Notes: a model not told the origin generated them from the sequence alone. A stretch of 64,000 nt of DNA from an uncultured Pirellulaceae bacterium (GCA_938084685.1 CALKGE010000003.1:99898-163897), one strand, 5' to 3'. Numbered from the stretch's first letter, positions 26,984 through 52,305 are shown. Numbers and translations: made by a program.

Positions 26984-28612
26984 TTAGCTGCGACTAAATC
27001 CAAGGTAGAAGCTGAATACCTGTTTGTCATCGGTATCGGCGTGATGGATTGGGAACCCAAAGTCGAGCGCAAAGGGTGCCTGAGACATAAACGGCATGGA
27101 AATACGCAATCCGGCTCCCACGACAACTCGGAAGTTATCAGGGTCAATATTGTAATCCTGCTCAACGGTTCCAAAGTCTGTAAAAACAACTCCTTTAAGC
27201 ATGTCATCGGCAGTGAAGGGGAACAGGTATTGGACCGTACCGAGGAATCGATGGTGCCCTCCAACTCGCACTCCGCTCACTTCTGGCGATGCTCCACGAA
27301 ATTCGAAACCTCGCATCGTAGAGTAACCACCGGCAAAATAATGGTCGTACAAAGGGGTGTCTTTTCCAGTAATATCATATTGAACTCGCCACGAGAGGAC
27401 ATGGCGTCCAGATCCGTCAGCTCTTTCACGGATCAAGTAGTATTTTCGGTATTCAACTCCACCGCGAGGGTAGACGTAGTCACCAAGGACCTGTTCGAAG
27501 TTGGCATTGAAGTAATAACCTTCTGTGGCCAGAAATGGGGTGTCGCGTGTGTCGTGACTGAGTCCCACTTTGAGTCCGACCAGATCATTGTGTCCTAAAG
27601 CATTGTCCAATTCAGGCACGCCCGTAATGGAGGGATCAGTGACTTTGATTCGTTCCAGGCGTACGGACGTGTTGACGCTTAAATCCGGGTTCAGACGGTA
27701 TCCAAAACCGACACGGCCACCGACTCGCTTTTCGTCCCAGTCGCGATAAATACGATCGTACATGAAGGCACTGGTGTTGAAACTGACTTTGGTGTCACGA
27801 AAGTAGGGATCGGAATATTGAAGCATATAGCGTTCCCACACTTCTCCCGGCATTGCTTCCAATCGAAAACCCTGCCCTCCTCCTCGAAATGCACGACCTT
27901 CAACAAAATCCTCCCAGCTCTCCGGGACAGCAGAGTAGTCAAAGTTTCGTTCGTCTATGACAATTTGACCGGTAACACCTGCATCCGAGTTCACACCGAC
28001 GCCGAACATAAACCGTCCAGTACGCCCTTCTTCGACATAGACATCAAAAGGAATCGTATTCATCGCCGCATCGGGATCAAAAAAGGGAGTAACGGAGTTG
28101 TCGTTAGGAGCCATCTCTTCCGGGACCTGGATCTGGGCCTGGCTCACCTGATCATCGACTCGTAAAACACGAGAGGGGTTGGATAATTCGACAAAGTCAG
28201 CATTGGTCACAGGATTTTGGCCACGAATGAATGTTTCCTCACCATACTCGAGGAAAGCTGAATCATCGAATTCAGGGATCAGTGAGTTGTCAGGACTGGT
28301 TTCCAGATGAAGGTCTGTATCACCTGCGGAGTTCTGATCGGAATTGATAATTGTTGTTGGCTGAGTAATGTCAGATGGTTGATTTGAGGATGGATTCACT
28401 GTCTGTAGACCATCTGCGGTCTGGTGGGGTGTGTCCGCCGATTCAGCTGCTACTTCCTGGGCGAGTTGTTCTAGCGCATGTCTTTCCCTGTTTGTCTCCT
28501 GAGCTGCTTCAGAGGGCGAGCCAAATCGATTGGCACAACCTGCGGAAGCCAGCATCAGTGAGAAGCAGGCAAGTGCGGCTGGAAGTTTTGCATTTCGCAT
28601 AAATTTGCTCAT
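26984..28612 (-). CDS. Omp85/BamA-type beta-barrel protein with its own lipoprotein-type signal peptide and no POTRA domains
   Basis: The track ORF is 26984..28849. The start is revised to M80 (MSKFMRNAKLPAALACFSLMLASAGC, a lipobox-compatible sequence). After a ~170-aa low-complexity linker the canonical barrel onset appears (VEEGRTGRFMFGVGVNSDAGVTGQIVIDERNF). The barrel ends in an aromatic-rich terminal strand (VFSFYLGFSRS). Confidence 0.8.
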   Translation of the reverse strand: MSKFMRNAKLPAALACFSLMLASAGCANRFGSPSEAAQETNRERHALEQLAQEVAAESADTPHQTADGLQTVNPSSNQPSDITQPTTIINSDQNSAGDTDLHLETSPDNSLIPEFDDSAFLEYGEETFIRGQNPVTNADFVELSNPSRVLRVDDQVSQAQIQVPEEMAPNDNSVTPFFDPDAAMNTIPFDVYVEEGRTGRFMFGVGVNSDAGVTGQIVIDERNFDYSAVPESWEDFVEGRAFRGGGQGFRLEAMPGEVWERYMLQYSDPYFRDTKVSFNTSAFMYDRIYRDWDEKRVGGRVGFGYRLNPDLSVNTSVRLERIKVTDPSITGVPELDNALGHNDLVGLKVGLSHDTRDTPFLATEGYYFNANFEQVLGDYVYPRGGVEYRKYYLIRERADGSGRHVLSWRVQYDITGKDTPLYDHYFAGGYSTMRGFEFRGASPEVSGVRVGGHHRFLGTVQYLFPFTADDMLKGVVFTDFGTVEQDYNIDPDNFRVVVGAGLRISMPFMSQAPFALDFGFPIHHADTDDKQVFSFYLGFSRS

Positions 28613-28619
28613 CTTCGAT

Positions 28620-30281
28620 TTATTTATGGAGAGTCGGTGGTGCAAACGATTTTGGCAGCGGAAAAGCTGAGGTGCGATCGATTTGCTGAGAGGCATTCCT
28701 GGCTGGACTCTGGCCACGAATCGTGTCGTAGCCCGGTTGGGTTGCTGACTCAGGGTTCGGGGCGGGAGGGAGCGCCCGGGGTTCGTTACGTGTCTGGATT
28801 TCTTCGGTTCGTACAACGATCGTGGGAGGCGATCCCATCGTGGTTCCATCGTTAAACAGGGAACTGTGGCGGAGGCGGCGTTCGCTTGAGAGAACGTCCT
28901 GATTGCTTGCCAGGTAGCCTGGGATTAACGAGAGTCGATTGAGTACGACAGAGTTTTTTGTATGTGGAGAGATTCCCGAGATGTGTACTGCGATTTCTCC
29001 GACTTTGAATTGCTCACCTTCGTCGATGTTGAAAACGACTTCGAGTTCTCCTGGAGTTTCCTGAAAGCGGATATCGGCGGATATTTTGGAATAGATATAT
29101 CCGAGTTTCCCGTACAAATCGCGAATTGATTCGACGTCACCATTAAGTTGTCCACGAAGAAAGAAATCGTTGTTGTTGGTAGCAATTAATTCCTGGATTG
29201 ATTGTTTGGAGACCTGTTCGTTTCCTTCCACTCGAAGTGAGGTGATGCGGTACCTGGGACCTTCGTTGACGATGAATCGCAAAGTGACCCAGTGGCCGGA
29301 ATCGTCGTAGTCTATCTGGCGTCCGACGGTAGCCTGGAAATATCCCAGATTTCGATAATAGGCGACAAGTTTTTCCATGTCACTTTCAATTCGGGACGGA
29401 ATGTAATCACCTCCGACGAGCCAATTTGAGAGTCGTGCTTTGGACTCAAACAGAGTTAAGAGCCTGGCATCCTGAGCTAACTGTGGATTGTTGCCGACAA
29501 CTTCGATGGCAGCTATTTTTTCCTTTGGACCCTCACTGATATAAAAAAGGACATCACGTTCACCTGGCTTGAGTCCTTCCAGAACTTCAACATGAGCTTT
29601 GGGGAACCCATGTTCGTGATAGAGCTCTTTGATTTTTCTGGTTGCATCTTCGATCGAGAATAGATCGAGTGCATCTCCCGCCCTGAGGTCAGTTTCCTTG
29701 GTGAGTTTTTTATCCAGATACCAGCGGTTGCCAATAAAACGGACTGAGGCGATGGTTGGACGCTCGAAGATTTCAAATGTCAGATGCAGTCCCAGATTGG
29801 ACTGTTTGACTAACAGCCTCACGTCCCTGATGAGCCCTGTACCGTAGAGTGCTCTGACGTCCTGCTGCACGATGGCGGAGTCAAAAGACCGATCAATTCG
29901 CGACTTTATCGTTCCATACAGACGCTCGTCTGTGAGGAATTTGTTCCCTTTGAATTCGATGGATGCGATGGGTGATCCGTGGTATTTAAGATGTTGTTGT
30001 TCTTCTTCTTGCTTCAGTTCATCCATGGTTTGCGGGTTACTGTTTCTGGCAGGCCCACGTACTCCTGGAGTGCCTGGTTGCCGATTCAGACTCTGAGGTC
30101 GCGGTGAACGGGCGCCAGCAGGCAAAAGTCCACTTGCGGGTTGCACTTCGCTTGTAGACCCGGGACGGAATGGTTCGTCGGTTTGGGCGAAAAGAGGTGA
30201 AGTCAGACAGAGTATTGCCAGATAACTTACCACGATTCGGGCAGTGAAAACGTGATTACCAGTGAGTTGAGTAGGGGTCAT
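28620..30281 (-). CDS. Periplasmic five-POTRA-domain protein (the BamA N-terminal part) with no beta-barrel
   Basis: 553-aa ORF with signal IVVSYLAILCLTSPLFA/QT and a Pro-rich spacer. Five POTRA-like repeats begin at IASIEFKGN, IASVRFIGN, IAAIEVVGN, ITSLRVEGN and VGEIAVHISG. The stop lies 7 nt before the barrel gene start. Confidence 0.85.
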   Translation of the reverse strand: MTPTQLTGNHVFTARIVVSYLAILCLTSPLFAQTDEPFRPGSTSEVQPASGLLPAGARSPRPQSLNRQPGTPGVRGPARNSNPQTMDELKQEEEQQHLKYHGSPIASIEFKGNKFLTDERLYGTIKSRIDRSFDSAIVQQDVRALYGTGLIRDVRLLVKQSNLGLHLTFEIFERPTIASVRFIGNRWYLDKKLTKETDLRAGDALDLFSIEDATRKIKELYHEHGFPKAHVEVLEGLKPGERDVLFYISEGPKEKIAAIEVVGNNPQLAQDARLLTLFESKARLSNWLVGGDYIPSRIESDMEKLVAYYRNLGYFQATVGRQIDYDDSGHWVTLRFIVNEGPRYRITSLRVEGNEQVSKQSIQELIATNNNDFFLRGQLNGDVESIRDLYGKLGYIYSKISADIRFQETPGELEVVFNIDEGEQFKVGEIAVHISGISPHTKNSVVLNRLSLIPGYLASNQDVLSSERRLRHSSLFNDGTTMGSPPTIVVRTEEIQTRNEPRALPPAPNPESATQPGYDTIRGQSPARNASQQIDRTSAFPLPKSFAPPTLHK

Positions 30282-41284: not shown

Positions 41285-41328
41285 GCGTCGTCGTCGGAGA
41301 TCGCTGGCAAGTTGAGTCAGTGAAATGC

Positions 41329-42039
41329 TCAACTTTGAAGAGCCTCTTTTTGAATGCGTGTTAATTGGCGAATTCCTTTTTTCGCCAAGGCCAGCAGTTC
41401 GCCAAGTTGAGCTTCACTGAAGGTGCTTTCTTCGCCGGTCCCCTGAATCTCTACGAATTGCCCTTTCCCGGTCATTACCACATTCATGTCGACTTCGGCG
41501 GCGACGTCGAGTTCGTAATCCAGGTCGAGACGGGCCTTTCCATTAACGATCCCCACGCTGATGGCTGCCAGGCTGTCGCGGAGCGGAGATGTTCCGGGAT
41601 GCGGTAAGTCGTCCTCGAGACTATTAATCGCATCGACGACAGCGATATACGCTCCGGTAATACTGGCGGTACGTGTTCCGCCATCAGCCTGAAGTACTTC
41701 ACAGTCAATCGCGATGGTGCGCTCGCCCAAAGCCTCCAGGTCAGCGATAGCCCGAATGCTGCGCCCGATCAATCGTTGAATTTCTGTTGTGCGGCCGTCG
41801 ACTTTTCCCCGTTCTCGGCGTTTACGCGGATTGGTACTGGAGGGCAGCATATTATATTCGGCAGTGATCCAACCTTTACCCTTGCCTTCCATCCAGAGTG
41901 GTACGGAAGCTTCCACACTGGCAGTACACAGGACAACGGTGTTACCAGCGGAATAGAGTACGCTTCCCGGGGCTTTATTCGTGAAGTGACGTTGAACTGA
42001 GATCGGACGCAGTTGGTTGGCTCGGCGTGTTTTGGCCAT
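41329..42039 (-). CDS. rph: Ribonuclease PH
   Basis: 236-aa ORF with [35 protein letters not shown] and [18 protein letters not shown]. Confidence 0.95.
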
Positions 42040-42098
42040 GAAGAGAACCTGTAGAGAACCTGTGATGGAGAAAAAAAATGGTGAATGGCGGGGGGGCT

Positions 42099-42135
42099 AT
42101 AAAAAATACACAGGTCAGACAAAACCTGTGTATTT
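42099..42135 (-). terminator. Intrinsic terminator ending the three-gene PilM-like operon
   Basis: Perfect 12-bp stem aaatacacaggt/acctgtgtattt with an 8-nt loop. On the minus strand it is followed by a T-run (tttttat). It lies 30 nt downstream of the 42165 stop. Confidence 0.75.
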
Positions 42136-42164
42136 CATATTGTCAGTGATTTTGAAGTCGTGTT

Positions 42165-44621
42165 CTACATGCCGGGGAGACCTGGCATTTCTTCTCCTCC
42201 AGGGTTCGGGGCCATCATGCCTCCTTCCATGCCGCCCGGCATACCTCCCATCATGCCGCCACCGGCTGCGTCGGATGGGGCATCAGGTTGGTAGTTGTAC
42301 CGTTGCCAGAGTTTAACGTCGTCAAGCTCAGTTTTCACTGTCAGATTCCCATCCTTATCAAACAGGACGAACTCGCCTGGTGCGAAGATGGCATTGTCAT
42401 CGACAAACATCTTTTCGTAGGTGGTCCCTTTGAAGAGATCTTCGCCACCACGAAGGTCGCCAACGATAATATTGGTCTGGAAATTGTAACCGGGAAGGCT
42501 GTTGATCACTTCAGAAATCGGATGTCCGTATTCTGCGTCAGCGGTAAAGTTGAGCAGTGCACCTCGGCTGACATTGCGGTCGTAGGGGACATCTACCGCA
42601 CGTTGTCGATCAAAGACAATCGGCTTGAGAATGCCAAGGGGTTCAGCGTCTACGTAGGTTGCACCTGTCGAGGAACGGGTTTCACGAGCTGCTTCGACAG
42701 ACCCAGCTGCAATCATCGTTGGATCAGGCACTGTGATAGCTTCACTGGGAGCGCTCCATTCCGTCTTGCGGAACCAGACCGCGCCATTGGCAGCATTGGC
42801 CTGAAGTTCTTTGATGCGATTGAGTGAATTGACATCCAGAGTTTGCTCGGAAGGAGCCCGATGGTCAGCATATTCGTCATCAGGATTCGTATTTGGCAGG
42901 TTGGGGTCTTCTACCCAGAGTTGAACTCGATAGCGGTACGTTCGTTCTGTCTGTGCCGAGAAATCGAAGAAACGGACCATTTTGTAGTCAGGAATATCGG
43001 CAGAGGACATACCTCCCATTCCCATGCCACCCATGCCGCCCATGGCTCCGCCCATGCCCATACCAGACATGTCACCTCCCATGCCCATTCCGGACATGTC
43101 ACCACCCATGCCCATCCCGGGCATACCAGCCATATCACCTTCGCCGGCACCTGTCGGACCGCCCACGGTGTTGTTGTCATTACGTCTGGGTCGACGACCA
43201 CTGCCGGGGACGTTGGAATCGACATTCTCATCCGCCTCTTCTTCCACCGCGGAATCGTCTGTCGGTGCTTGACCAGCGAGCGGGATTTCTGGATGTCGCA
43301 AAAGATCGCTGATTTCGCGCATCATGACCGGAGGACAGGTTAGTGAAATATATTCATTGAGATGAGTACTGTCGACGATCTCATTTGCAGTACCATACCA
43401 CTGTTCGGCAGCTCTGTTGTGAGCTCGAGTGTTGAGTAAATCTTCCCAGGCGTATTCACCTTCGTCCTGTTGTGGGTTGTCAGTGATATCGACGCGTTGG
43501 ACTGTCATGAAGATGTAATCAGGACGGTCACGAAGAGCATCGTAGCCGGAACGCATTGCCAGAGCTCGTTCATACTCGTCAAACTGCTTCTTGAATGGAA
43601 CAAGTGCAGTAACACCGACAATGGTGTGAGCTACGGCAACGGGAGATCCTTTGGGTCTATCGGAAGAAGCGGGCGATCCACCAGCACCAGCCATATTTCC
43701 TCCTGCGGCACCTGACATCGCAGCAGTCATGTCACCACCTGCATCACCTCCCATAGCGGCAGCCCCGCCTCCCCCTGGTCGGTATCCCAGAATCTGTCCC
43801 CGGTCTGCTCGCAAGCGTCGCACGGCACTGGTTTGGGCGCCCATGCCGCCCATGGCTCCCATCATGCCGCCGCCTCCTTCAACTCCGGGCATAGTGGACA
43901 TATCACCAGCCCCCTCCGTTCCTGGGATTCCTGCGAACGGATCGTTATTCTCATTGCGTCTCTTGGGTTTGTTGGTAGGTTTCTTCTCTTCCTTTACTTC
44001 CAAAACAGCGGGCTCATCAGCAGCGGTTGGATCCACAGAACCTTCAGGCAGCGTATAGGCTACAGGGCCTGTCAAGGCATGGGCGCGCAGATCAGTGGCA
44101 GTATACAGTTCGGGGTCTTCACGCTTTTTAGTGTTTCGATTGATAGGAGGACTCAGCAGTCGCGACATGCTGTATTCAGAGGCACTGATATTAACCTGAC
44201 CTTCTGCAGCACGTTGTTCAAAGGACTTCTCTGTATCCTGTGTATAGGACTCTTTTTCTTTATCCCAGTCACCGCTGGAAATTGCTGATCGGGCATTCTG
44301 GATTTGCTGATCGAGTTGGTCAGGTGTTTGGTTAAACCGGTTACCCATCTCGTCTTTCCCGGCACTCAGGCCGGAATAAATGAGGTATCCGGAAGCGAGC
44401 ACCGCCAGTGTCAAGGCGATTTTTTCACCGTAGAGCACGAGCGGGTTATCAGTAATCTGTTTCCCCTTTTTTCGTTCGGACGAATCCTTCTTCTTTTTTC
44501 CCGTTTCAGCCTGAGGTGCATCTGGATCCGCAGTCAGGTCTGCTTCGCCGGTGGCTGCCAATACGGCGTTCATAATGGCTTCTGCTTCAGCTTCTTTATT
44601 TTTCTTGCGTCCGAATACCAT
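42165..44621 (-). CDS. Large bitopic envelope protein with Gly/Met-rich low-complexity tracts (third gene of the PilM-like operon); unknown family
   Basis: 818-aa ORF with a Lys-rich N-terminal region and one TM helix (IALTLAVLASGYLIYSGL). Several G/M/A-rich tracts are present, including GMGMGGDMSGMGMGGDMSGMGMGGAMGGMGGMGMGGM. A folded-looking C-terminal region follows (MVRFFDFSAQTERTYRYRVQLWVEDPN...). The protein ends in a GGMMGGMPGGMEGGMM tail. Confidence 0.75.
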   Translation of the reverse strand: MVFGRKKNKEAEAEAIMNAVLAATGEADLTADPDAPQAETGKKKKDSSERKKGKQITDNPLVLYGEKIALTLAVLASGYLIYSGLSAGKDEMGNRFNQTPDQLDQQIQNARSAISSGDWDKEKESYTQDTEKSFEQRAAEGQVNISASEYSMSRLLSPPINRNTKKREDPELYTATDLRAHALTGPVAYTLPEGSVDPTAADEPAVLEVKEEKKPTNKPKRRNENNDPFAGIPGTEGAGDMSTMPGVEGGGGMMGAMGGMGAQTSAVRRLRADRGQILGYRPGGGGAAAMGGDAGGDMTAAMSGAAGGNMAGAGGSPASSDRPKGSPVAVAHTIVGVTALVPFKKQFDEYERALAMRSGYDALRDRPDYIFMTVQRVDITDNPQQDEGEYAWEDLLNTRAHNRAAEQWYGTANEIVDSTHLNEYISLTCPPVMMREISDLLRHPEIPLAGQAPTDDSAVEEEADENVDSNVPGSGRRPRRNDNNTVGGPTGAGEGDMAGMPGMGMGGDMSGMGMGGDMSGMGMGGAMGGMGGMGMGGMSSADIPDYKMVRFFDFSAQTERTYRYRVQLWVEDPNLPNTNPDDEYADHRAPSEQTLDVNSLNRIKELQANAANGAVWFRKTEWSAPSEAITVPDPTMIAAGSVEAARETRSSTGATYVDAEPLGILKPIVFDRQRAVDVPYDRNVSRGALLNFTADAEYGHPISEVINSLPGYNFQTNIIVGDLRGGEDLFKGTTYEKMFVDDNAIFAPGEFVLFDKDGNLTVKTELDDVKLWQRYNYQPDAPSDAAGGGMMGGMPGGMEGGMMAPNPGGEEMPGLPGM

Positions 44622-44712
44622 TTTCGAAGTTCTCCGCCCGACAGATGCCGGGAATTTTTTTACTTAATTGTTGTTTTGTCTAACTGATTATTTTGACTGG
44701 GTTAAATACTGC

Positions 44713-46341
44713 TTATTCAGCTCCCACATCAGCCGGTTGTCCCTGGTCGGCTGGATCGCCGGCATCAGCCGGGTCATTATTATTCTGGTTTGCCTGCTGC
44801 TCGTCAGGGTCGATCCCCAACGCAGTAGGATTGGGGGGATTGTAGATGTGGACAATGCCGTAGACTTCTACTTCCTGATGGTAGGGGTGTTGTGCCGCCT
44901 GAACAGTGGCAGCCCCTTCACCACCATCCATGGTGCCCATCATACCTTCCATACCGCCACTCATCCCGCCGGCCATATCACCACTCATCGTGCCCTGCAT
45001 ACCGCCAGCTCCACCGCCGGCACCACCTTTATTGATGCCGCTATCACCGCCAATACGAACTTGAAGGACTTCGATACCTAACTCGGCATTGCCACAGGCA
45101 GCGAGGAACTGCGAGAGGTATCGCATGTCGAGTTTGAGTCGGATTCGAGTGGGATAACGTTTCGAGACGGCAAGTTCCGGGTTCGCCTTGCGGGAATTGG
45201 GATCCAGTGCCTCTCGCAATTCAGCAACCCGCAACGGTTTATATTTCGCATCAACATAGCGGAGGTCTCCAGGATCGTCGGTGGGTACCATCCTTCCCGA
45301 GCTATCGGTTCCGGCTGTGTTCGAATCGCTGGCTCCCTGCCCACCCTCAGGGGTCGTCGAAGAATTACTCATCTGCTGCATCATGTCCATGCCGCCCAGA
45401 GCATCTGCACCGCTCCCGCCTCCGTCTGCGGTCATTACTTTTCCACCGTTGAGAATGGCATCTTTGGCCAGATCAACTCCATTGGGGCCATTGTTGTCGC
45501 CATTCCGGGCAAGATCGATTCCGATGATTTCTGTAACTTTGGCGTTATAAGCCGCGACGGCTTCCTTATTGAGGTCTTTAATAATCGCCAGCCACTGTTG
45601 CAAGATCCACAGGTCTTCCTGTGTATAGAGAATCTGCAAGGTGGAGGGTGTTTCCGTAAATGTGAAACGTTCATTCAGCGCATTCTGGTTGCCTGATTCC
45701 CAAGCCACCATGTGGTCTGGTCCCTCTTCAACTGCCGGTGCTGCGCCTGTTCCTCCTCCGGCCGTCAGATTTCCTCCCGCTTCTGCTCCGAATCCGGCAA
45801 TTTCTTCGCCACCAAAACCGCCTGCTTCCGACTCATTTTCACCCCAGTCAGCATCGATCTGCTCTGCCAGCTTCGGCAGATAGGTCTTGAGAAAGTCGGC
45901 ATAGTTGGTACGAGCGATTCGTTTGACTTCGACAGGGTTTTCCTGATCATCAGGATTGATCACACCACTGGCCTCGACTTTTAATTCGATGGGCGTTAGT
46001 GGTATGAATGAATTCGCGGTGATTTGATCGAGTTCCCCATTGGCCGTGGGCCAGTTAAAAGCTGTCTTCTGGCTGTTGTATTTTGCATCCCAGGTTTTGT
46101 GGATATCAAACTTGATCTGCGTCATGATCTCTTCCATCCCTTTTTTGAACTTGGAATTCGGATGGTTGTTATCATTGACCTTCTGGATATTATCCATGTT
46201 GCTGAAGATCGTCTTGATACTGCTGGTTTGCTGAGTACGTTCTTCGTCCAGTTTTCCAATTGCCAAAAACCAGAGAACAGTCACGGTGACAGTAATCAAC
46301 CCTGAAGTAACCCAGAAGATAGATTTTTTGAAGTCGTCCAT
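44713..46341 (-). CDS. Bitopic envelope protein with a Gly/Met-rich tract (second gene of the PilM-like operon); unknown family
   Basis: 542-aa ORF with an N-terminal TM helix (IFWVTSGLITVTVTVLWFLAI). It has Gly-rich segments, a GGAGGMQGTMSGDMAGGMSGGMEGMMGTMDGG tract and an acidic C-terminus. Confidence 0.75.
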   Translation of the reverse strand: MDDFKKSIFWVTSGLITVTVTVLWFLAIGKLDEERTQQTSSIKTIFSNMDNIQKVNDNNHPNSKFKKGMEEIMTQIKFDIHKTWDAKYNSQKTAFNWPTANGELDQITANSFIPLTPIELKVEASGVINPDDQENPVEVKRIARTNYADFLKTYLPKLAEQIDADWGENESEAGGFGGEEIAGFGAEAGGNLTAGGGTGAAPAVEEGPDHMVAWESGNQNALNERFTFTETPSTLQILYTQEDLWILQQWLAIIKDLNKEAVAAYNAKVTEIIGIDLARNGDNNGPNGVDLAKDAILNGGKVMTADGGGSGADALGGMDMMQQMSNSSTTPEGGQGASDSNTAGTDSSGRMVPTDDPGDLRYVDAKYKPLRVAELREALDPNSRKANPELAVSKRYPTRIRLKLDMRYLSQFLAACGNAELGIEVLQVRIGGDSGINKGGAGGGAGGMQGTMSGDMAGGMSGGMEGMMGTMDGGEGAATVQAAQHPYHQEVEVYGIVHIYNPPNPTALGIDPDEQQANQNNNDPADAGDPADQGQPADVGAE

Positions 46342-46417
46342 TGTTTTATGCCCTTAAGTGGTTCGGAGTGGCAGCTCCGGTCCGTTTTTATTCAAGGTAT
46401 GCAGTGAATCAGGTTCA

Positions 46418-48838
46418 TTAGGTTCCGGGAGCCGGTTCGGCGTCGTCTGGTCCGTCAACAGGCGGGCCGTCTGGTTCACCATTCTGGTCCGGATTGTTAC
46501 GGGCTTGTTCTTCTGCAAGTTTTTCGGCCTCCAGTCGAGCTGCTTCGTCAGCTTCTACTTTCAACCGGTATCGTTCTCTTACTTCATTCGGCTCCCACAG
46601 GAACTGCACGGTAAAGGAATACTTCTTTGCGGTATATTCGACTTTTTCTTCAGCTGGTGCTGCATTACCACCCGTCGTCGGATTGCCTCCTGTTCCGCTG
46701 GCAGGATCTGTTCCGCCGGTGATGCCGCTCGCTGCCTCACTTCCAAAGTTCGTGCTAGCTCCTCCAAAACTGTTATTGTCGGAAGCTCCAATTTTAACTT
46801 CCCCTTCATATTTGGAGTCGGCGAGAACGATGTACTTGATGCCCATCTGTTCCATGCTGAATGGCGTTACGCCAAAAGGAGTGGGGATGGCGATAACCGA
46901 GTGGCGTAGTCGTTCCAGCAGAGCGTACTGAACATGGCTCTTGTAACCGGTTTCATTGTTGTTGTTGAAGTAGTGGTAACCTTGAAGCTGGATGACCCAG
47001 GCTCCGTCTTCCGAGGGTGTGAATTCGTCATTATCTGTATTTCCACTTTGGGAAGAACTTCCACGACCGCTACCGCTATTATCAGCTGCCGCTGCTGCAT
47101 CAGCTTGACGTTGCAATTCGAAATTGCGAAGGAATTGGACATAGGCAGTATTGTTTTGAACAAAACTCTGGTTCTTGACAATGCTTTCGAGCCATGTCTG
47201 ACGATCCTGGTCCATTTCCCTGAGATTACTGGTGTAACGGGCTTCATTTTTTGCCCACCAGATTTTGAGGTCATCTTCGGATAGGAAGGCGTTGTCGACC
47301 GATTCGATGTAGAAGTCAGGGCGATCTTTGAACTGGATCACGTCCGGGTCACGCCATTGCGTTTGTTCACCCGGGAGCACGTAATTAATAGCTCCGATCA
47401 GTTCCAGCCACATGACCTGACGATCTCCGTACCCAATCAGCTGATTACCAAACAAAATCAGGTTGTCGTACTCTTTCTTGATCTTGTCATAGTCCTGTTT
47501 GTTACGGGTCGATTCCGAGTTGGCCGAGTCCGCACTGGAGATAGCGGTTTCCCACTTACCAATCGGATTTGTACCTGTCTGGTCGTGGGCGACATTATTC
47601 CACTGAGCGAAATTCAGGAAGTAATTAAAGGTAAACGAGATCAGTAGTAACGCGATGGCGGCAACTACCCATGGTTTTTTCGAGTCAACCAGTCGGTCAA
47701 ATAGAAGTTCCCGTGGGAGCAGGTTGGTTTGAAGTTGAGCTACTCCGAGTGCTTGAAGGCAAAGGCCGTAGCAGTTGCCATAGGCCAGAACATTGTTTCG
47801 AAAGGTGGGGCTGGCCGTCACACTGGATCCCTGAAGTCGATTCCAGGTCTCCAGCTCGACAATGTCGATTTCAACCTTTTTCCCGATGAAGCTACGGAGT
47901 CCGGGGAGTTTGGCGGTGTTGCCCAGGATGACCACTCCTTTGATCGTTGCTTTACGATCAATCCCTTCGAAGAACCGCAGAGTTCGCTGGACTTCTGTTC
48001 CCAGGTTGTCATAGACGCTGCGCATTGCCTGAAAGACTCGCTTCGGATCCGGAGCTTCACGAGCGTTTCGTTTGAGGTGTTCGGCTTTGCTGAACGTCAG
48101 CTTGAGTTGTTGTGTCATTTGGCGAGTGAAATGATTACCGCCGATCGGAATGCTGCGGTGCCAGACGCGGAATCCGTTGGTGATGACCATATCAGTGGTT
48201 TCCGTGCCGATTGATAACACCATGTAGCTGGGGGGAGGCGAGTCCGGATCGAAGGCGTCCGGGTCAGGACAATTGTCCAGCAGGTCATAGGTAATACAGT
48301 TGTAGATCGCCATGGGTGCCAGTTGGATGGCATCCAGTTTCAGTTCCGCATTATCGAAGGGACGCATCTCGCGTATCACCTGATCGCGTTTCATGGCAAA
48401 CAAGCCAACTTCAGCATCGATGATCAGGCCTTCCATTTCGGAACCACCACCCATTTGCTGAAAGTCCCAGACAACTTCATTCAAATCGAAAGGGATCTGC
48501 TGCCGGGCTTCAAACTCCACAATGTCCCGCAGTTTCTTTTGTTCAATTGGGGGTGGCTTGAAGAACTTTGCCAAACCGGACTGACCTGACACAGAAACGG
48601 CTACGCGTTCATGCTCAATGTCATTACGTTCCTTCAACTGCTCTAATGCGTCAGCAATCAGGGCTTCCGGGTCTGCATCTGGTTGGCTCAGAATTTTGGG
48701 GTATTCAATGTAGTCGACCTGTGTTGCGACGACCTCGCCGTCCTGGATCTCGCAGCGCATTGCCTTGAGTGCGCATTGTCCAATGTCGACTCCCCAGACT
48801 CCAGGATTTGTTTTAGCGGCCATTAGGACCCTTTCCAA
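46418..48838 (-). CDS. PilM-like actin-fold ATPase fused to a PilN-like TM segment and a ~400-aa periplasmic extension
   Basis: 806-aa ORF. The PilM pattern reads VWGVDIGQCALKA..., VEFEARQQIPFDLNEVVWDF, LSIGTETTDMVI...IPIGGNHFT...AEHLK, RTLRFF...VVILGNTAKLPGL. Next comes the PilN hallmark NLLPRELL (nt ~47725), followed by the TM helix WVVAAIALLLISFTFNYFL. Confidence 0.85.
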   Translation of the reverse strand: MERVLMAAKTNPGVWGVDIGQCALKAMRCEIQDGEVVATQVDYIEYPKILSQPDADPEALIADALEQLKERNDIEHERVAVSVSGQSGLAKFFKPPPIEQKKLRDIVEFEARQQIPFDLNEVVWDFQQMGGGSEMEGLIIDAEVGLFAMKRDQVIREMRPFDNAELKLDAIQLAPMAIYNCITYDLLDNCPDPDAFDPDSPPPSYMVLSIGTETTDMVITNGFRVWHRSIPIGGNHFTRQMTQQLKLTFSKAEHLKRNAREAPDPKRVFQAMRSVYDNLGTEVQRTLRFFEGIDRKATIKGVVILGNTAKLPGLRSFIGKKVEIDIVELETWNRLQGSSVTASPTFRNNVLAYGNCYGLCLQALGVAQLQTNLLPRELLFDRLVDSKKPWVVAAIALLLISFTFNYFLNFAQWNNVAHDQTGTNPIGKWETAISSADSANSESTRNKQDYDKIKKEYDNLILFGNQLIGYGDRQVMWLELIGAINYVLPGEQTQWRDPDVIQFKDRPDFYIESVDNAFLSEDDLKIWWAKNEARYTSNLREMDQDRQTWLESIVKNQSFVQNNTAYVQFLRNFELQRQADAAAAADNSGSGRGSSSQSGNTDNDEFTPSEDGAWVIQLQGYHYFNNNNETGYKSHVQYALLERLRHSVIAIPTPFGVTPFSMEQMGIKYIVLADSKYEGEVKIGASDNNSFGGASTNFGSEAASGITGGTDPASGTGGNPTTGGNAAPAEEKVEYTAKKYSFTVQFLWEPNEVRERYRLKVEADEAARLEAEKLAEEQARNNPDQNGEPDGPPVDGPDDAEPAPGT

Positions 48839-49485
48839 ATATCAATACGAACAGCTTGATTGCCAGTCCGGTAATTGAAGAACTTGTTAAACCTGCCAGT
48901 GTAACCTTCACCAAGTACCCGATTACGACGTTGGCGCGTTGCTTACCGACTCTATCGACCAGAACCTGTCCGGATTCTGACATCAGGTCTGTACGGATAC
49001 TACATGTCCTACAGTCGTTATGTCCATCACAACTTTGAACAACCGGGTGCTCAGAATAGAGCAATTATACCGATTACAAGGTCGTCATCGAGGGTTACTC
49101 GGGTCTTCGCTTTCAGCGGTTTCAGGATAAGTTTCAAGGATGAATGATTCCGCATCGTTACCTTCGACTAAATGTAAACGACAGAAGTTCCCCTCAAAAA
49201 AGCTCAATGCTCCGATTCCCTACTATCAATCTAGTTAACAGCAGGTTTTAGTGTCAAACATTTTACTTCGTATTGCAAGGAGTTTGCGGCGACATGTCGA
49301 GCGCGAATATTCACGAAACAGGTTAAAACATGTTCCTACGTATGGTAGTTAGGACAAGATGAGCAAATAATGCTTTTATTGGTTTATGTCGTGACAATTT
49401 GGTTTTGAATTTACACCACCACCACCCTCTCGACTTTTTGCCCTTCCATTTTCACCTTGATTTCATCAAACCGGTTTTTCCAGAG

Positions 49486-52305
49486 ATGCCCTACAAAGAA
49501 CTTTCCATTCTGCTGTCCTGTCATAGCCTCGAGGATTTTCCGACCTACCACGAAGGGGATGAGGCGGCAAGTTTATTGGCAAGCTGGACCGGGTTATGGC
49601 ATCCCTTTCTGATTCACGAGTCCCGGGGGATTGTGAAGTGGCATCGAGTGGATGACCCGCCGGAAGAGTTGATGAATAAGTTGATTGTGGTTCCCATGAC
49701 CAGTGCGGACAATTTGCAGACCGGTTATCTGCAGCGAGCCGATGATGCGGGAGCCCGAGTGATCAGTCGGCAAACTTGTCGGCAGGAAATCATCCGCCAG
49801 GCACTCGAAGGACATGATGTCCCGGAGATGGATCAGGATCTGATTGACGACTTCCTGGCGCTGGGATATTTCTATCTGCAGATTGAACTGCTCACCAGAC
49901 AGATGCGTTATGCCAGTAACCTGGACGAGATTCATTTTGAGAATACCGTATGTGATGCCGCTCGGTTTGCGGTGACCGGAGATCGTGAGCAGGCCATCGA
50001 GAAGATTCAATCAGCGTTTGATCTGCTGTCTACCGAGCGAGATCATTACTATTCAGTGGACGCCTATCTGGTGGACATCAATATGGTGGCTGAATCCACG
50101 TTAGGAACGATGCTTGTTGATGAATTGACCGATACTCCAGCGACGAATCTACTGCTGCCCCCAGCGTTATACCAGGAATTGGCCGAAACTCATCCACGTT
50201 CCCTGGAACGGATCTGCCAGCGCATGGTAGATGGGACGTTGAGTGTTTTATGCTGTGAGCACGAGAATATTCCGAATACGATGTTGCCAGCTGAAGCAGT
50301 ACGGGAGTCACTGCTGGCCGGTCGCAAGTCCTTTCAGGATCTGTTTGGTCAGACGCCAGCAGTGTACGGACGAAAGGACTTCGGGTTAACTTCTAATCAT
50401 CCGCAGTGGCTGCAGCAGTGCGGATACGATGCCGCTTTGCATTTTCTGTTAGGTGAGGGAAGTTATCCGGAAAGTTCTCAGGCAAAGACTCGCTGGGAAG
50501 GAGTCGAGAATACTCAGGTGGATTGTATCGCCAGAGTGCCACTGAATGCCAACCGCCACGAAACGTTTCTGGGATTATCCAGTCGTCTGGGGGAAACGAT
50601 GGATATGGACCACGTGGCTACGCTCTGTCTGGCACACTGGCCGGGTCAGGTTTTACCCTGGTATGACGATATGCGGAGGGCGTCCAAATACACCAATGCG
50701 TTGGGACGCTTTGTAACTCTGGAAGAATATTTTCGAGATACCGATTTACCGGGAATGAATGAAAAGTTTGAAGGAGATCAATATAAGTCGCCCTATCTGA
50801 AGCAGGCGATGATCAAGACGATTGCCAATCCAATTTCGAGGTCGGTGCGTTACTGGCGAATAAACAACCGGATTGAATTGCTGGAAGGTGCCAACTTGAT
50901 GCTGGGGCTACTCGGCGGTGACCTGCTGGCGGACGTTTCCTCGGCTCGCTGCGACCATGCCGGTTTACACCAACTGTTAACCGCAGACGACATCGAACAG
51001 AAGTTGGAGGAACTGGAATCGCGTGTTAGTCAGTTGGAGTGTGAGTCAGGTGCGGCTCTGGCTGCTGCCGTCCCCAGAGAGGGAGAATCGACCCCAGGAG
51101 TGCTGGTTTTCAATCCCTATGGAGCGACACGTCGTCTGCAGGTCAGTGATACTGTTTTGTCCCGGATTCCGGATTTGGAGAAGCCGGTGTATGCGGCCGC
51201 CAGCCAGGGAGAATCGATGCAGGTTGTCGTGGACACTCCTTCGCTCGGGTTCAGCTGGTTAACCTCCGGTTCCAGACGTGAAAAGTCAGGGCCAGTGATT
51301 GCCGAAAAGAACATGTTAAAGAATGATTTCTTTGAGGTGCTTGTCAATGAAACAACTGGAGGCATCCAGTCCATCAACTCGTACGATGCGCCACGTCACA
51401 ACCGAGGTTCCTTTCAACTTGCCTACCGGCGCCCGGTGCGGAAGAAGTCTGGCCGTCCTGCCGAGTCAGACGATTTGGCGAACTATTCGGTCATGGCAGC
51501 AGATTCAGTGGAGGTGACTGCAAGTACGACTGTGTATGGTGAATTGACGGTACAGGGACGTATTATGAGTCGGTCCGGAGAAGTGCTGGCTCGTTACACT
51601 CAGATTCTTTCTCTGTTTCGCGGGTCCCGAATTCTGCACGTCGATATTGAACTGGACATTGATGAATTACCCAGAAACAATCCCTGGAATTCCTACTATT
51701 GCTTCCGGTATGCCTGGGACAATGAAGCTGCGACGGTATACCGTACCGTGAACGATGTCCGGCAGCGAGCTTCGGGAAATCGATTGGAAGCACCTCAGTA
51801 TCTAGAAGTGGAAGCGGAAAAGAACACGGCGCTGCTGACTGGCGGATTGCCATTTCATCGACGGGTTGGCCGGCGATTTCTGGATTCGATTCTGGTGGTC
51901 ACCGGGGAGACTGAGCGGCGGTTTCAACTCGGGATAGGTCTGGATTTACCCCAACCCGTACACTACGCTCGGCAGTTCGGAACAACTCCGGTAGTGGTTA
52001 GCGAAACAGCTGCAGCTCCGACAGGCCAGGCCACCAGTTCGCTGCTGCATGTGGACGCTCGTAATGTGCTGGTGACACGCTGGGAGCCTATTACGGAAAA
52101 GGGTCTGCTGGTCGGTTACAAGGCGCGTTTGATGGAGAGTGCGGGGCGACCGGTGCGAGTGCGACTGACGAGTTGCCGACGCGTCTCTGCGGCCACTCAA
52201 TTCAAGCTTTGTGGTGAGAAAATAGCCGAGTGCGATCTGGATGACGGACGTGTGGTATTGGAACTGACTGCCAATGAGTGGGTCGAACTGGAAGCCCGGT
52301 TTTAG
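49486..52305 (+). CDS. Large conserved-looking cytoplasmic protein of unknown function
   Basis: The track ORF starts at 49399 (TTG, His-run). ATG 49486 (MPYKELSILLSCHSLEDF) is more plausible. The product is ~940 aa with no signal peptide or TM helix. The C-terminus has a beta-sandwich-like ending reminiscent of GH38-type enzymes, but I could not find the catalytic motifs. Confidence 0.7.
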   Translation: MPYKELSILLSCHSLEDFPTYHEGDEAASLLASWTGLWHPFLIHESRGIVKWHRVDDPPEELMNKLIVVPMTSADNLQTGYLQRADDAGARVISRQTCRQEIIRQALEGHDVPEMDQDLIDDFLALGYFYLQIELLTRQMRYASNLDEIHFENTVCDAARFAVTGDREQAIEKIQSAFDLLSTERDHYYSVDAYLVDINMVAESTLGTMLVDELTDTPATNLLLPPALYQELAETHPRSLERICQRMVDGTLSVLCCEHENIPNTMLPAEAVRESLLAGRKSFQDLFGQTPAVYGRKDFGLTSNHPQWLQQCGYDAALHFLLGEGSYPESSQAKTRWEGVENTQVDCIARVPLNANRHETFLGLSSRLGETMDMDHVATLCLAHWPGQVLPWYDDMRRASKYTNALGRFVTLEEYFRDTDLPGMNEKFEGDQYKSPYLKQAMIKTIANPISRSVRYWRINNRIELLEGANLMLGLLGGDLLADVSSARCDHAGLHQLLTADDIEQKLEELESRVSQLECESGAALAAAVPREGESTPGVLVFNPYGATRRLQVSDTVLSRIPDLEKPVYAAASQGESMQVVVDTPSLGFSWLTSGSRREKSGPVIAEKNMLKNDFFEVLVNETTGGIQSINSYDAPRHNRGSFQLAYRRPVRKKSGRPAESDDLANYSVMAADSVEVTASTTVYGELTVQGRIMSRSGEVLARYTQILSLFRGSRILHVDIELDIDELPRNNPWNSYYCFRYAWDNEAATVYRTVNDVRQRASGNRLEAPQYLEVEAEKNTALLTGGLPFHRRVGRRFLDSILVVTGETERRFQLGIGLDLPQPVHYARQFGTTPVVVSETAAAPTGQATSSLLHVDARNVLVTRWEPITEKGLLVGYKARLMESAGRPVRVRLTSCRRVSAATQFKLCGEKIAECDLDDGRVVLELTANEWVELEARF

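What the first reader, a model, noticed from the sequence alone, without database searches (positions are those of the whole stretch)
42099..48838. Terminator-bounded three-gene operon: a PilM-PilN fusion plus two oversized bitopic proteins, with no pilin, ATPase, platform or secretin genes
Seen:
- Gene A (46418..48838) has a full PilM-type actin-fold N-terminal domain, the PilN hallmark NLLPRELL plus a TM helix, and then ~400 additional periplasmic residues. This gives a GspL-like topology, but in an 806-aa protein.
- Genes B (542 aa) and C (818 aa) each have a single N-proximal TM helix and large low-complexity-containing ectodomains.
- All three genes are co-directional with gaps of 77-92 nt.
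- The operon ends in a perfect 12-bp-stem terminator (42099..42135) before rph.

Established knowledge: PilM/N/O(/P) form the inner-membrane alignment subcomplex of type IV pili, and GspL/M play the same role in type II secretion. These genes normally sit next to pilQ or gsp genes.

Inference: this is either a remote, expanded PilMNOP-like scaffold or a repurposed trans-envelope scaffold unrelated to pili. B and C would occupy the PilO/PilP positions but are 3-5 times larger.
Basis: partly seen in the sequence, partly recalled or inferred. Interest (0 to 1): 0.7.

Follow-up and report, generated by a model that had tools for sequence, protein, structure and literature searches.

The report
Planctomycete PilM-type secretin-machine base, secretin relocated
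These three genes are the inner-membrane part of a widespread planctomycete envelope-spanning machine that is a distant, enlarged relative of the Akkermansia Amuc_1098-1102 "pili-like" mucin-uptake cluster. In many relatives a giant outer-membrane secretin gene follows them, so the cluster is less isolated than it looks, but its function in planctomycetes is untested.

Summary
Three co-directional minus-strand genes sit between a conserved promoter and leader and a strong terminator hairpin: A (46418..48823, 801 aa from the conserved ATG), B (542 aa) and C (818 aa). Each has one TM helix. B and C carry Gly/Met-rich linkers.

- **A** is a PilM domain joined through an invariant NLLPRE motif and a TM helix to about 400 periplasmic residues. 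Its best match is the NCBIfam "Amuc_1101 family PilM-like" model. It aligns with Akkermansia Amuc_1101 through the TM and beyond.
- **B** is a remote, expanded relative of Amuc_1100, which has a PilO-like fold. The support is the top Foldseek hits and 9 of 32 family members matching the Amuc_1100 model.
- **C** has no detectable relative outside its own family. It occupies the Amuc_1099 position.

A-B-C order is conserved across Planctomycetota. A 1,260-1,400-aa secretin directly follows C in 11 of 44 distinct loci, including very distant ones. No locus shows an adjacent pilus ATPase or platform gene; one carries a prepilin-type N_methyl gene about 4 kb upstream.

The cluster is therefore the inner-membrane base of a PVC-type PilM/secretin machine whose secretin gene has moved away in this lineage. 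It is neither an ordinary type IVa pilus PilMNOP set nor an unrelated scaffold. I rate it a new variant of a known kind. The function (fibre assembly or macromolecule uptake) is inferred, not shown.

The parts
49228..49257 (-). Sigma-70-like promoter TTGACA-18 nt-TAGATT upstream of gene A
   Evidence: Consensus scan scores 10 of 12. Both hexamers are invariant in six relatives at 77-81% protein identity. Function is inferred.
48824..49227 (-). Conserved 5' leader of about 400 nt ahead of gene A
   Evidence: Long invariant blocks in six relatives. No Rfam match. RNAalifold finds no covariation support (covariation term +1.23).
46418..48823 (-). Gene A: PilM-type actin-fold domain + NLLPRE motif + TM helix + about 400-aa periplasmic region (801 aa; Amuc_1101-like)
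   Evidence: Pfam PilM_2 E 3.9e-28. NCBIfam Amuc_1101_fam E 9.9e-56, 189.8 bits, below the 650-bit cutoff. BLASTP against Amuc_1101 E 8e-28 over 432 aa. hhalign probability 99.6%. More than 5,377 homologues.
47753..48793 (-). A residues 11-357: cytoplasmic PilM domain with conserved actin-fold phosphate and adenosine motifs
   Evidence: Invariant D13/G15, G206-T207..T210-D211, G228-G229-N230 and G301-N302.
47708..47728 (-). A residues 366-372: TNLLPRE, a PilN-type N-terminal motif
   Evidence: T366, L368, P370 and E372 are invariant, R371 is at least 90% conserved, and the consensus reads TNLLPRE in 20 homologues. That this is the PilM-binding motif of PilN rests on established knowledge of PilM-PilN complexes, not on a test here.
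47615..47671 (-). A residues 385-403: the single TM helix
   Evidence: Kyte-Doolittle peak 2.06. It aligns with the TM helix of Amuc_1101.
46421..47614 (-). A residues 404-801: periplasmic region
   Evidence: Conserved positions include W424, G459, W472, W609, H617, F737, Q740, F741 and W743. No PDB or Pfam match. Only the first ~70 residues align with Amuc_1101.
44713..46341 (-). Gene B: bitopic protein (TM 8-26), remote expanded relative of Amuc_1100 with a PilO-like fold (542 aa)
   Evidence: AF2 model pLDDT 69.8, ordered parts above 80. Eight of the top ten Foldseek PDB hits are Amuc_1100 chains (6lad, 6laf, 6kny); PilO chains (2rjz, 5uvr, 3jc8_O) rank 9th and 11th-13th. NCBIfam Amuc_1100_fam hits 9 of 32 family members, best E 1.8e-5. 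The window's own B does not hit.
44827..45279 (-). B residues about 355-505: C-terminal beta-alpha-beta / disordered linker / beta unit, equivalent to the Amuc_1100 core
   Evidence: Model elements E393-405, H406-417, E423-430, low-confidence 437-483, E488-500. Homologues match Amuc_1100_fam model positions 194-295 here. The linker sits where Amuc_1100 has its Ala/Pro-rich insert.
42165..44621 (-). Gene C: bitopic protein (TM 68-86), 818 aa, family-specific, in the Amuc_1099/PilP/GspC position
   Evidence: No Pfam, NCBIfam or PDB-sequence hit for the protein or a 32-member profile. AF2 failed (pLDDT 29.6). It follows B in 47 of 49 loci.
42312..42989 (-). C residues 545-770: conserved C-terminal domain (YKxVRFxDF...YRYRV..EDPN...WSxPS...RGG...PGE)
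   Evidence: 730 cluster representatives at E<=1e-3 and 303 at E<=1e-10 among 1.84 billion. In the full-length hits of about 550-950 aa it lies near the C-terminal end; many shorter hits consist of little more than the domain. Invariant columns are listed.
42099..42140 (-). Intrinsic-terminator-like hairpin ending the operon, before rph
   Evidence: Seen directly in the sequence. Folding energy -19.9 kcal/mol, z -4.61, 0 of 200 shuffles as stable.

Best explanation
A, B and C encode the cytoplasmic-membrane and periplasmic base of a secretin-linked, PilM-type envelope-spanning machine of the PVC superphylum. It is the planctomycete counterpart of Akkermansia Amuc_1101, Amuc_1100 and Amuc_1099.

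- A supplies a cytoplasmic actin-fold (PilM) domain with conserved nucleotide-binding motifs. It is fused through a PilN-like NLLPRE motif and a TM helix to a large periplasmic domain.
- B is an expanded Amuc_1100/PilO-like bitopic partner.
- C is a third bitopic protein that most likely reaches the outer-membrane secretin.

The ancestral operon was A-B-C-giant secretin(-DUF423). In the window's lineage the secretin gene is no longer adjacent; it has moved elsewhere or, less likely, been lost.

The oversized ectodomains and Gly/Met-rich flexible linkers plausibly let the complex span the unusually wide and variable planctomycete periplasm.

Shown: the domain identities of A, the fold and family link of B, the membrane topologies, the synteny and the secretin linkage in relatives. 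Inferred: physical assembly of A, B and C, contact with the secretin, and any role in fibre assembly or macromolecule uptake.
For: - A is PilM-type. It scores higher on the Amuc_1101 family model (189.8 bits) than on TIGR01175 pilM (119.1 bits).
- A aligns with Amuc_1101 through the TM helix and about 70 residues beyond (E 8e-28, probability 99.6%).
- Eight of the top ten Foldseek hits for B among 350,542 PDB chains are Amuc_1100 chains; PilO chains rank 9th and 11th-13th.
- Nine of 32 B-family members hit the Amuc_1100 family HMM in two collinear regions. No other model is hit by more than 2 members.
- The Akkermansia locus L089 has the same order and topologies: PilM-TM-periplasmic protein (612 aa), bitopic (317 aa), bitopic (337 aa), secretin (907 aa).
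- Synteny over distinct planctomycete loci: B after A in 56 of 58, C after B in 47 of 49, secretin directly after C in 11 of 44. The distant locus L088 also has the secretin directly after C; in L087 it lies about 1.5 kb downstream after two small ORFs.
- Where no secretin follows, the downstream genes are unrelated housekeeping genes.
- At least 562 species-level genomes encode an A relative.
Against: - The window's own B does not reach the Amuc_1100 model.
- Foldseek E-values are weak (0.12-2).
- hhalign of the B profile against a shallow Akkermansia-only Amuc_1100 alignment is not significant.
- C shows no similarity to Amuc_1099, PilP or GspC, and its structure could not be predicted.
- No counterpart of Amuc_1102 lies upstream of A.
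- I could not check whether this genome keeps the secretin elsewhere, because only 64 kb of it are available.
- No experimental data exist for any planctomycete member in the literature I could search.
Confidence: 0.7

Rival explanations
1. This is an ordinary, merely diverged type IVa pilus alignment subcomplex (PilM/N/O/P). It serves a canonical pilus whose ATPases, platform protein, pilins and PilQ are encoded elsewhere.
For: PilM domain, with M. xanthus PilM as the best PDB match. PilN-like NLLP motif. PilO chains among the Foldseek hits for B. The secretin next to C in relatives hits TIGR02515 PilQ.
Against: - No Pfam or NCBIfam PilN, PilO or PilP match at E<=1.
- The proteins are 3-5 times larger than the canonical ones.
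- C is a bitopic protein with no PilP match.
- No pilB, pilC or pilT gene appears next to the cluster in any locus whose gene calls I read. The only prepilin-type gene seen lies about 4 kb upstream in L003/L004.
- A is closer to the Amuc_1101 family than to pilM.
- The relatives' secretin is 1,260-1,400 aa and hits GspD as well as PilQ.
Confidence: 0.17
2. This is a type II secretion-like GspL/GspM/GspC scaffold working with a GspD-type secretin to export proteins.
For: A has GspL-like topology: cytoplasmic actin-like domain, TM helix, periplasmic domain. The relatives' secretins hit TIGR02517 GspD at E 1e-26 to 2e-27. One B homologue hits GspM weakly (E 0.13).
Against: No GspL, GspM or GspC profile hit for A, B or C. 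A matches PilM rather than GspL and keeps the actin-fold nucleotide-binding motifs. No gspE, gspF or pseudopilin genes are adjacent in the loci whose gene calls I read.
Confidence: 0.05
3. In this lineage the three proteins act without any secretin, as a repurposed inner-membrane and periplasmic scaffold. The secretin was lost rather than relocated.
For: rph follows C here and in the close relatives L008, L010 and L011. Three quarters of orthologous loci have no adjacent secretin.
Against: A, B and C stay full length and highly conserved (63-81% identity to close relatives), as in lineages that have the secretin. Secretin position varies (upstream in L050, 4.5 kb downstream in L031), which favours relocation.
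Confidence: 0.08

Closest known systems
Akkermansia muciniphila Amuc_1098-Amuc_1102 cluster (MUL2 locus; 'pili-like' proteins)
   Same: - Same order and topology: a PilM domain fused to a TM helix and periplasmic domain (Amuc_1101), then a bitopic PilO-like protein (Amuc_1100), then a second bitopic protein (Amuc_1099), then a secretin (Amuc_1098).
- A is homologous to Amuc_1101.
- The B family is remotely homologous to Amuc_1100, with a disordered insert at the same place.
- Literature: the cluster's proteins are abundant envelope proteins (PMC5332112). MUL2 is needed for mucin acquisition (Davey 2023, as cited in PMC12418764, bioRxiv 10.1101/2024.03.27.586211 and 10.64898/2025.12.30.696933).
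   Different: - The planctomycete proteins are much larger: 801/542/818 aa against 612/317/337 aa. The secretins are 1,260-1,400 aa against 907 aa.
- They carry Gly/Met-rich linkers.
- They score far below the NCBIfam equivalog cutoffs.
- C shows no similarity to Amuc_1099.
- There is no Amuc_1102-like gene upstream. Instead a conserved divergent GH38-like gene sits there.
- A has the NLLPRE motif where Amuc_1101 has NIDLEP.
- The secretin is not adjacent in this window.
- The one published distribution survey I found covers Verrucomicrobiota only (PMC13174399).
Type IVa pilus alignment subcomplex PilM-PilN-PilO-PilP with secretin PilQ
   Same: PilM domain. PilN-type NLLP motif followed by a TM helix. 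A PilO-like fold in the next gene. A third membrane-anchored periplasmic protein. A secretin as fourth gene in relatives.
   Different: PilM and PilN are fused. PilN, PilO and PilP profiles do not match. C is bitopic with no PilP match. The sizes are far larger. No linkage to pilus ATPase or platform genes was seen.
Type II secretion GspL-GspM-GspC with GspD
   Same: A has the GspL topology (cytoplasmic actin-like domain + TM + periplasmic domain). B and C are bitopic like GspM and GspC. The relatives' secretin hits GspD models.
   Different: No GspL, GspM or GspC sequence similarity. A is PilM-type and retains nucleotide-binding motifs. No other gsp genes are nearby.

Membership tests
Amuc_1098-1102 / MUL2-type cluster (NCBIfam Amuc_1101_fam, Amuc_1100_fam, Amuc_1098_fam) | PilM-like protein meeting the Amuc_1101 family equivalog model (NF045709, cutoff 650 bits) | tested here: not met
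   This is the best-scoring model for A (E 9.9e-56), but at 189.8 bits it is below the cutoff and covers only model positions 51-459 of 608. Homology itself is clear.
Amuc_1098-1102 / MUL2-type cluster (NCBIfam Amuc_1101_fam, Amuc_1100_fam, Amuc_1098_fam) | Next gene is an Amuc_1100 family protein (NF038287, cutoff 180 bits) | tested here: not met
   The window's B gives no hit. Nine of 32 homologues hit at up to 23 bits, best E 1.8e-5. Foldseek's top hits are Amuc_1100 at E 0.12, target-normalised TM-score 0.57-0.63. B is a remote relative, not a member.
Amuc_1098-1102 / MUL2-type cluster (NCBIfam Amuc_1101_fam, Amuc_1100_fam, Amuc_1098_fam) | Third gene homologous to Amuc_1099 | tested here: not met
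   hhalign of the C profile against an Amuc_1099 alignment gives probability below 1%. Only the position and the bitopic topology are shared.
Amuc_1098-1102 / MUL2-type cluster (NCBIfam Amuc_1101_fam, Amuc_1100_fam, Amuc_1098_fam) | Adjacent secretin (Amuc_1098 family) | tested here: not met
   Absent from the window. It is present after C in 11 of 44 distinct relatives. Those secretins match Amuc_1098_fam only over the generic C-terminal domain, at 56-60 bits against a 750-bit cutoff.
Amuc_1098-1102 / MUL2-type cluster (NCBIfam Amuc_1101_fam, Amuc_1100_fam, Amuc_1098_fam) | Amuc_1102 (archaeal-type-IV-pilin-like, secreted) gene upstream of the PilM-like gene | tested here: not met
   Upstream of A lie a 560-nt non-coding leader and the divergent gene U. 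hhalign of the B and C profiles against Amuc_1102 gives nothing.
Type IVa pilus PilMNOPQ alignment subcomplex | PilM actin-fold cytoplasmic protein | tested here: met
   Pfam PilM_2 98.8 bits against a 27-bit cutoff. PDB PilM hits. TIGR01175 scores 119.1 bits, below its 133-bit cutoff.
Type IVa pilus PilMNOPQ alignment subcomplex | PilN: N-terminal NLLP motif, TM helix, and a periplasmic domain matching PilN profiles | tested here: inconclusive
   The motif and TM helix are present and invariant. No PilN profile or PDB match for residues 404-801.
Type IVa pilus PilMNOPQ alignment subcomplex | PilO protein (profile match) | tested here: not met
   No Pfam or NCBIfam PilO hit. There is only weak fold-level similarity to PilO 2rjz and 5uvr (E 0.84-2.3).
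Type IVa pilus PilMNOPQ alignment subcomplex | PilP lipoprotein with a beta-sandwich that binds PilQ N0 | tested here: not met
   C has an internal TM helix at 68-86 and gives no PilP hit. A lipobox was not specifically searched for. The fold could not be predicted.
Type IVa pilus PilMNOPQ alignment subcomplex | Genomic or functional linkage to pilB, pilC, pilT and pilins | tested here: not met
   None appears in the window ORFs I scanned. No pilus ATPase or platform gene appears in the called genes of the nine orthologous loci read. L003/L004 carry an N_methyl/SBP_bac_10 gene pair about 4 kb upstream, of a type I recall as abundant in planctomycete genomes (not tested here). The other fetched loci were screened only for my nine query proteins, not for these genes. 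Linkage elsewhere in the genome is not testable here.
Type II secretion GspL/M/C | Profile matches to GspL, GspM and GspC | tested here: not met
   No such hits at E<=1 for A, B or C. One B homologue hits GspM at E 0.13.

The most novel reading that the evidence does not exclude
The A-B-C(-giant secretin) module is the long-sought molecular core of the planctomycete large crateriform structures. These are the 'press-stud' complexes that tie the outer to the cytoplasmic membrane, carry 12-nm fibres and are proposed to take up whole polysaccharides. On this reading the module is functionally equivalent to Akkermansia MUL2 in mucin import, which would define a PVC-wide secretin-based macromolecule-uptake machine. 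The Gly/Met-rich linkers would act as extensible or gel-like periplasmic elements.
Probability: 0.22. Interest if true: 0.85.

Novelty: new variant of a known kind. Interest (0 to 1): 0.55.

Why it matters
Planctomycetes take up large polysaccharides and proteins into an enlarged periplasm. Crateriform structures with pili-like fibres are the suspected entry sites. A 2025 review still states that the mechanisms and players are unknown (PMC12673574; Boedeker 2017, PMC5394234).

This cluster is found in at least 562 species-level genomes. It is annotated only as 'PilM' plus hypothetical proteins. It turns out to be a remote relative of the Akkermansia locus that is genetically required for mucin acquisition.

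That gives a concrete, testable candidate gene set for the planctomycete uptake or fibre machinery. It also extends the Amuc_1098-1102 type of machine from Verrucomicrobiota to a second PVC phylum.

For annotation, B-family proteins can be labelled Amuc_1100/PilO-like. The C family defines a new conserved domain.

Tried and rejected
- Profile searches of the B and C families against all PDB sequences found nothing.
- Pfam and NCBIfam scans of B and C alone found nothing.
- The word-indexed homologue search for C was swamped by low-complexity words and returned 14 hits. I replaced it with orthologues taken from fetched loci and an exhaustive search with the C-terminal domain.
- hhalign among the A, B and C profiles found no PilN/PilO-type paralogy.
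- hhalign of B against Amuc_1100, as a single sequence or as an Akkermansia-only alignment, and of C against Amuc_1099 or Amuc_1102, was not significant.
- Rfam on 41000-50000 gave no match. RNAalifold on the 5' leader showed conservation but no covariation.
- The large ORFs downstream of C in loci without a secretin are a DUF7133/cytochrome c protein, kinases and hemB. They are not divergent secretins.
- Davey et al. 2023 could not be read because it is not held. Its findings are cited second-hand.
- The newer Pfam accession PF28028 on one B homologue is not in the Pfam copy at hand.
Full report
**1. Observation**

The three minus-strand ORFs exist as described.
- A runs 46418..48838 from an upstream TTG. 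The conserved ATG at 48823 follows the invariant GGAAAGGGTCCTA, matches the public gene call, and gives 801 aa.
- B is 44713..46341 (542 aa). C is 42165..44621 (818 aa). The gaps between genes are 76 and 91 nt.
- A hairpin at 42099..42140 has a perfect 14-bp core stem (42103..42116 paired with 42123..42136) and a U-rich tail. It folds at -19.9 kcal/mol, z = -4.6, and no shuffle out of 200 is as stable. rph starts about 60 nt further on.
- Hydropathy gives exactly one TM helix per protein: A 385-403, B 8-26, C 68-86.
- Gly/Met-rich segments lie at B 170-203, 292-337 and 419-489, and at C 224-321, 475-557 and 771-818.
- The window ORFs of 200 aa or more that I scanned against Pfam are housekeeping or planctomycete-typical genes. 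None is a secretin, pilus ATPase, platform or pilin gene. A secretin HMM and BLAST over all ORFs of 80 aa or more also found no secretin in the window. Short pilin genes were not searched for.

**2. Gene A**

*PilM domain.* Residues 11-357 are a PilM domain.
- Pfam PilM_2 matches at E 3.9e-28.
- PDB sequence hits are M. xanthus PilM 3jc8, T. thermophilus 2ych and P. aeruginosa 5eox.
- The actin-fold phosphate and adenosine motifs are invariant in 20 homologues: D13/G15, G206-T207..T210-D211, G228-G229-N230 and G301-N302. Nucleotide binding is therefore probably retained; this is an inference.

*Motif and periplasmic part.* TNLLPRE (366-372) follows directly and is conserved across the family: T366, L368, P370 and E372 are invariant and R371 is at least 90% conserved. 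It matches the conserved N-terminal NLLP motif through which PilN binds PilM. That link rests on established knowledge of PilM-PilN complexes and was not tested here. The TM helix and 398 periplasmic residues come next. These residues contain conserved aromatic positions but match no profile or PDB sequence.

*Closest family.*
- The best family model is NCBIfam NF045709, 'Amuc_1101 family PilM-like pilus complex protein'. It scores E 9.9e-56 and 189.8 bits, against 119.1 bits for TIGR01175 pilM. It is below the 650-bit equivalog cutoff.
- I fetched the Akkermansia muciniphila locus from gut metagenomes (locus L089).
- BLASTP of A against Amuc_1101 gives E 8e-28 over 432 residues. The alignment runs through the TM helix and about 70 residues beyond.
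- Profile-profile probability is 99.6%.

**3. Gene B**

The sequence alone finds nothing in Pfam, NCBIfam or PDB.

*Structure.*
- An AF2 model built on 32 homologues has ordered domains at pLDDT 80-94, separated by three low-confidence linkers.
- Searched against 350,542 PDB chains, eight of its top ten hits are Amuc_1100 chains (6lad, 6laf, 6kny). For these, probability reaches 0.89 and target-normalised TM-score is 0.57-0.63.
- PilO chains of P. aeruginosa and M. xanthus rank 9th and 11th-13th.
- E-values are weak (0.12-2), as expected for a multidomain query with disordered segments. The ranking is nevertheless specific.

*Family model.*
- Nine of 32 B-family members hit the NCBIfam Amuc_1100 family model, best E 1.8e-5. 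No other model is hit by more than two members.
- The matches fall in two collinear regions. The TM helix plus first helix matches model positions 2-105. The C-terminal beta-alpha-beta/linker/beta unit matches model positions 194-295.
- The disordered insert sits at the same place as the Ala/Pro-rich insert of Amuc_1100.
- I recalled the Amuc_1100 sequence from memory and then verified it. Residues 31-317 are 100% identical to PDB 6lad and 6kny. All 317 residues are 100% identical in metagenome loci.

*Conclusion.* B is a remote, expanded relative of Amuc_1100. The literature describes Amuc_1100 as PilO/PilN-like (bioRxiv 10.64898/2025.12.30.696933). The window's own B and the shallow Akkermansia alignments do not reach significance, so the link rests on the wider B family and on the predicted fold.

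**4. Gene C**

- C is a real, conserved protein. Its C-terminal 226-residue domain finds 730 cluster representatives at E<=1e-3 and 303 at E<=1e-10. In full-length hits of about 550-950 aa the domain lies near the C-terminal end; many shorter hits are little more than the domain.
- Neither C nor a 32-member profile matches anything in Pfam, NCBIfam or PDB.
- It shows no similarity to Amuc_1099, Amuc_1100 or Amuc_1102.
- Its assignment as the secretin-proximal component (the PilP/GspC/Amuc_1099 position) rests on gene order and bitopic topology alone.

**5. Context in relatives**

A has more than 5,377 homologues; the top 120 are Planctomycetota where named. A pattern scan found relatives in at least 562 species-level genomes. 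I analysed 80 loci from that scan plus those fetched by protein identity.

| Feature | Distinct loci with room |
|---|---|
| B directly after A | 56 of 58 |
| C after B | 47 of 49 |
| Gene U divergent upstream of A | 58 of 63 |
| Secretin starting within 1 kb after C | 11 of 44 (13 of 47 before removing duplicates) |

- U is a cytoplasmic protein of about 940 aa with weak GH38-N similarity.
- The secretins are 1,260-1,400 aa and are often followed by DUF423.
- One locus has the secretin upstream (L050). One has it 4.5 kb downstream (L031).
- The distant B homologue in L088 (24% identity) lies in U<->A-B-C-secretin. In L087 (23% identity) the order is B-C, two small ORFs, secretin, DUF423, and no intact A was called.
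- Where no secretin follows, the next genes are unrelated, such as hemB, kinases and rph.
- The window's clade (L008, L010, L011) shares the C-rph junction.
- The secretins match PilQ, GspD, MshL and Amuc_1098 models only over the generic C-terminal domain.
- No pilus ATPase or platform gene appears in any locus whose gene calls I read. One N_methyl/SBP_bac_10 gene pair lies about 4 kb upstream in L003/L004, of a type I recall as abundant in planctomycete genomes.
- The simplest history is an ancestral A-B-C-secretin operon, the same order as Amuc_1101-1100-1099-1098, with repeated relocation of the secretin gene.

**6. Mechanism**

*Shown:* domain identities, membrane topologies, synteny and secretin linkage in relatives.

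*Inferred:*
- A, B and C form an inner-membrane platform like PilM/N/O(/P) or GspL/M/C.
- The NLLPRE segment docks in a PilM groove, in cis or in trans.
- C bridges to the giant secretin.
- The long ectodomains and flexible Gly/Met linkers accommodate the wide planctomycete periplasm.

What passes through the machine is unknown.

*Relevant literature:*
- In Akkermansia the homologous MUL2 locus is required for mucin acquisition into intracellular compartments (Davey 2023, as cited in PMC12418764 and bioRxiv 10.1101/2024.03.27.586211). It is also proposed to build pili for attachment (PMC13174399).
- In Planctomycetes, crateriform structures connect the outer and cytoplasmic membranes, number about 104 per cell and bear dextran-binding 12-nm fibres (PMC5394234). 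Their components are unknown (PMC12673574).

A link between the two is attractive but untested. I give it about 0.2.

**7. Comparison and novelty**

The cluster fails the membership tests for the canonical type IVa pilus PilMNOP set, because the PilN, PilO and PilP profiles are not met and it is not linked to pilus genes. It also fails those for GspL/M/C.

It fails the equivalog cutoffs of the Amuc_1098-1102 families and lacks an Amuc_1102 counterpart. Even so, it clearly shares ancestry and architecture with that cluster.

The only distribution survey of MUL2 I found covers Verrucomicrobiota (PMC13174399). No paper in the searchable library connects it to Planctomycetota.

I therefore classify it as a new variant of a known kind. 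It is a phylum-wide, enlarged planctomycete version of the PVC PilM/Amuc_1100/secretin machine, seen here in a lineage where the secretin gene has left the operon.

**8. Verdict**

'Expanded PilMNO-like scaffold' is right. 'No secretin' is a local accident. PilP equivalence for C is unproven.
- Interest is moderate to good. The genes are already annotated as PilM plus hypotheticals and are very common. The Akkermansia link and the possible connection to crateriform structures make an old open question directly testable.

Noticed in passing
window 49486..52305 (+): Gene U encodes a 939-aa cytoplasmic-looking protein with no TM helix and 15 Cys. It has only weak GH38 N-domain similarity (Pfam E 6.3e-5; PDB alpha-mannosidase 7ufs E 0.012). 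It is transcribed divergently from A in 58 of 63 distinct loci, including the very distant L088. It could be functionally linked to the cluster or simply part of a conserved cmk-plsC neighbourhood.
   Followed up: partly
window 48824..49257 (-): A conserved promoter-like site (TTGACA-18-TAGATT) is followed by a 5' leader of about 400 nt ahead of gene A. The leader has long invariant blocks in six relatives. It has no Rfam match, and RNAalifold gives no covariation support. This is an unusually long conserved leader of unknown role.
   Followed up: partly
B residues 170-203, 292-337, 419-489; C residues 224-321, 475-557, 771-818 (window 42165..46341): Gly/Met-rich low-complexity linkers (GGMGGM-type) sit at conserved positions in B and C orthologues, although their length and sequence vary widely. 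Amuc_1100 has an Ala/Pro-rich insert at the position equivalent to the last B linker.
   Followed up: partly
window 10109..13615 and 13612..20703 (+): Two adjacent giant ORFs (1,168 and 2,363 aa) have no Pfam match at E<=0.001.
   Followed up: no
window 26984..30281 (-): A BamA-like gene appears as two overlapping ORFs. The POTRA repeats are in 28620..30281 and the Omp85 barrel is in 26984..28849. This could be a frameshift, an assembly error or an ORF-calling artefact.
   Followed up: no
L003 16830..21191, L005 17228..22331, L087 14918..18787: In relatives the giant secretin is usually followed by a DUF423 membrane protein. In L003 and L087 a divergent ECF-type sigma-70 gene comes next. The N-terminal ~1,000 residues of the secretins have almost no profile matches, only weak TPR and STN hits.
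   Followed up: partly
P0156 (B homologue): The precomputed annotation lists Pfam PF28028.1 for this B-family protein. That accession is not in the Pfam copy available here, so a recent Pfam family may already cover part of the B family.
   Followed up: partly
L087 6302..9949: In this distant locus the space where A should lie, between the U-like gene and B, carries only short called genes. This suggests a frameshifted or degraded PilM-like gene, or errors in a long-read assembly.
   Followed up: no
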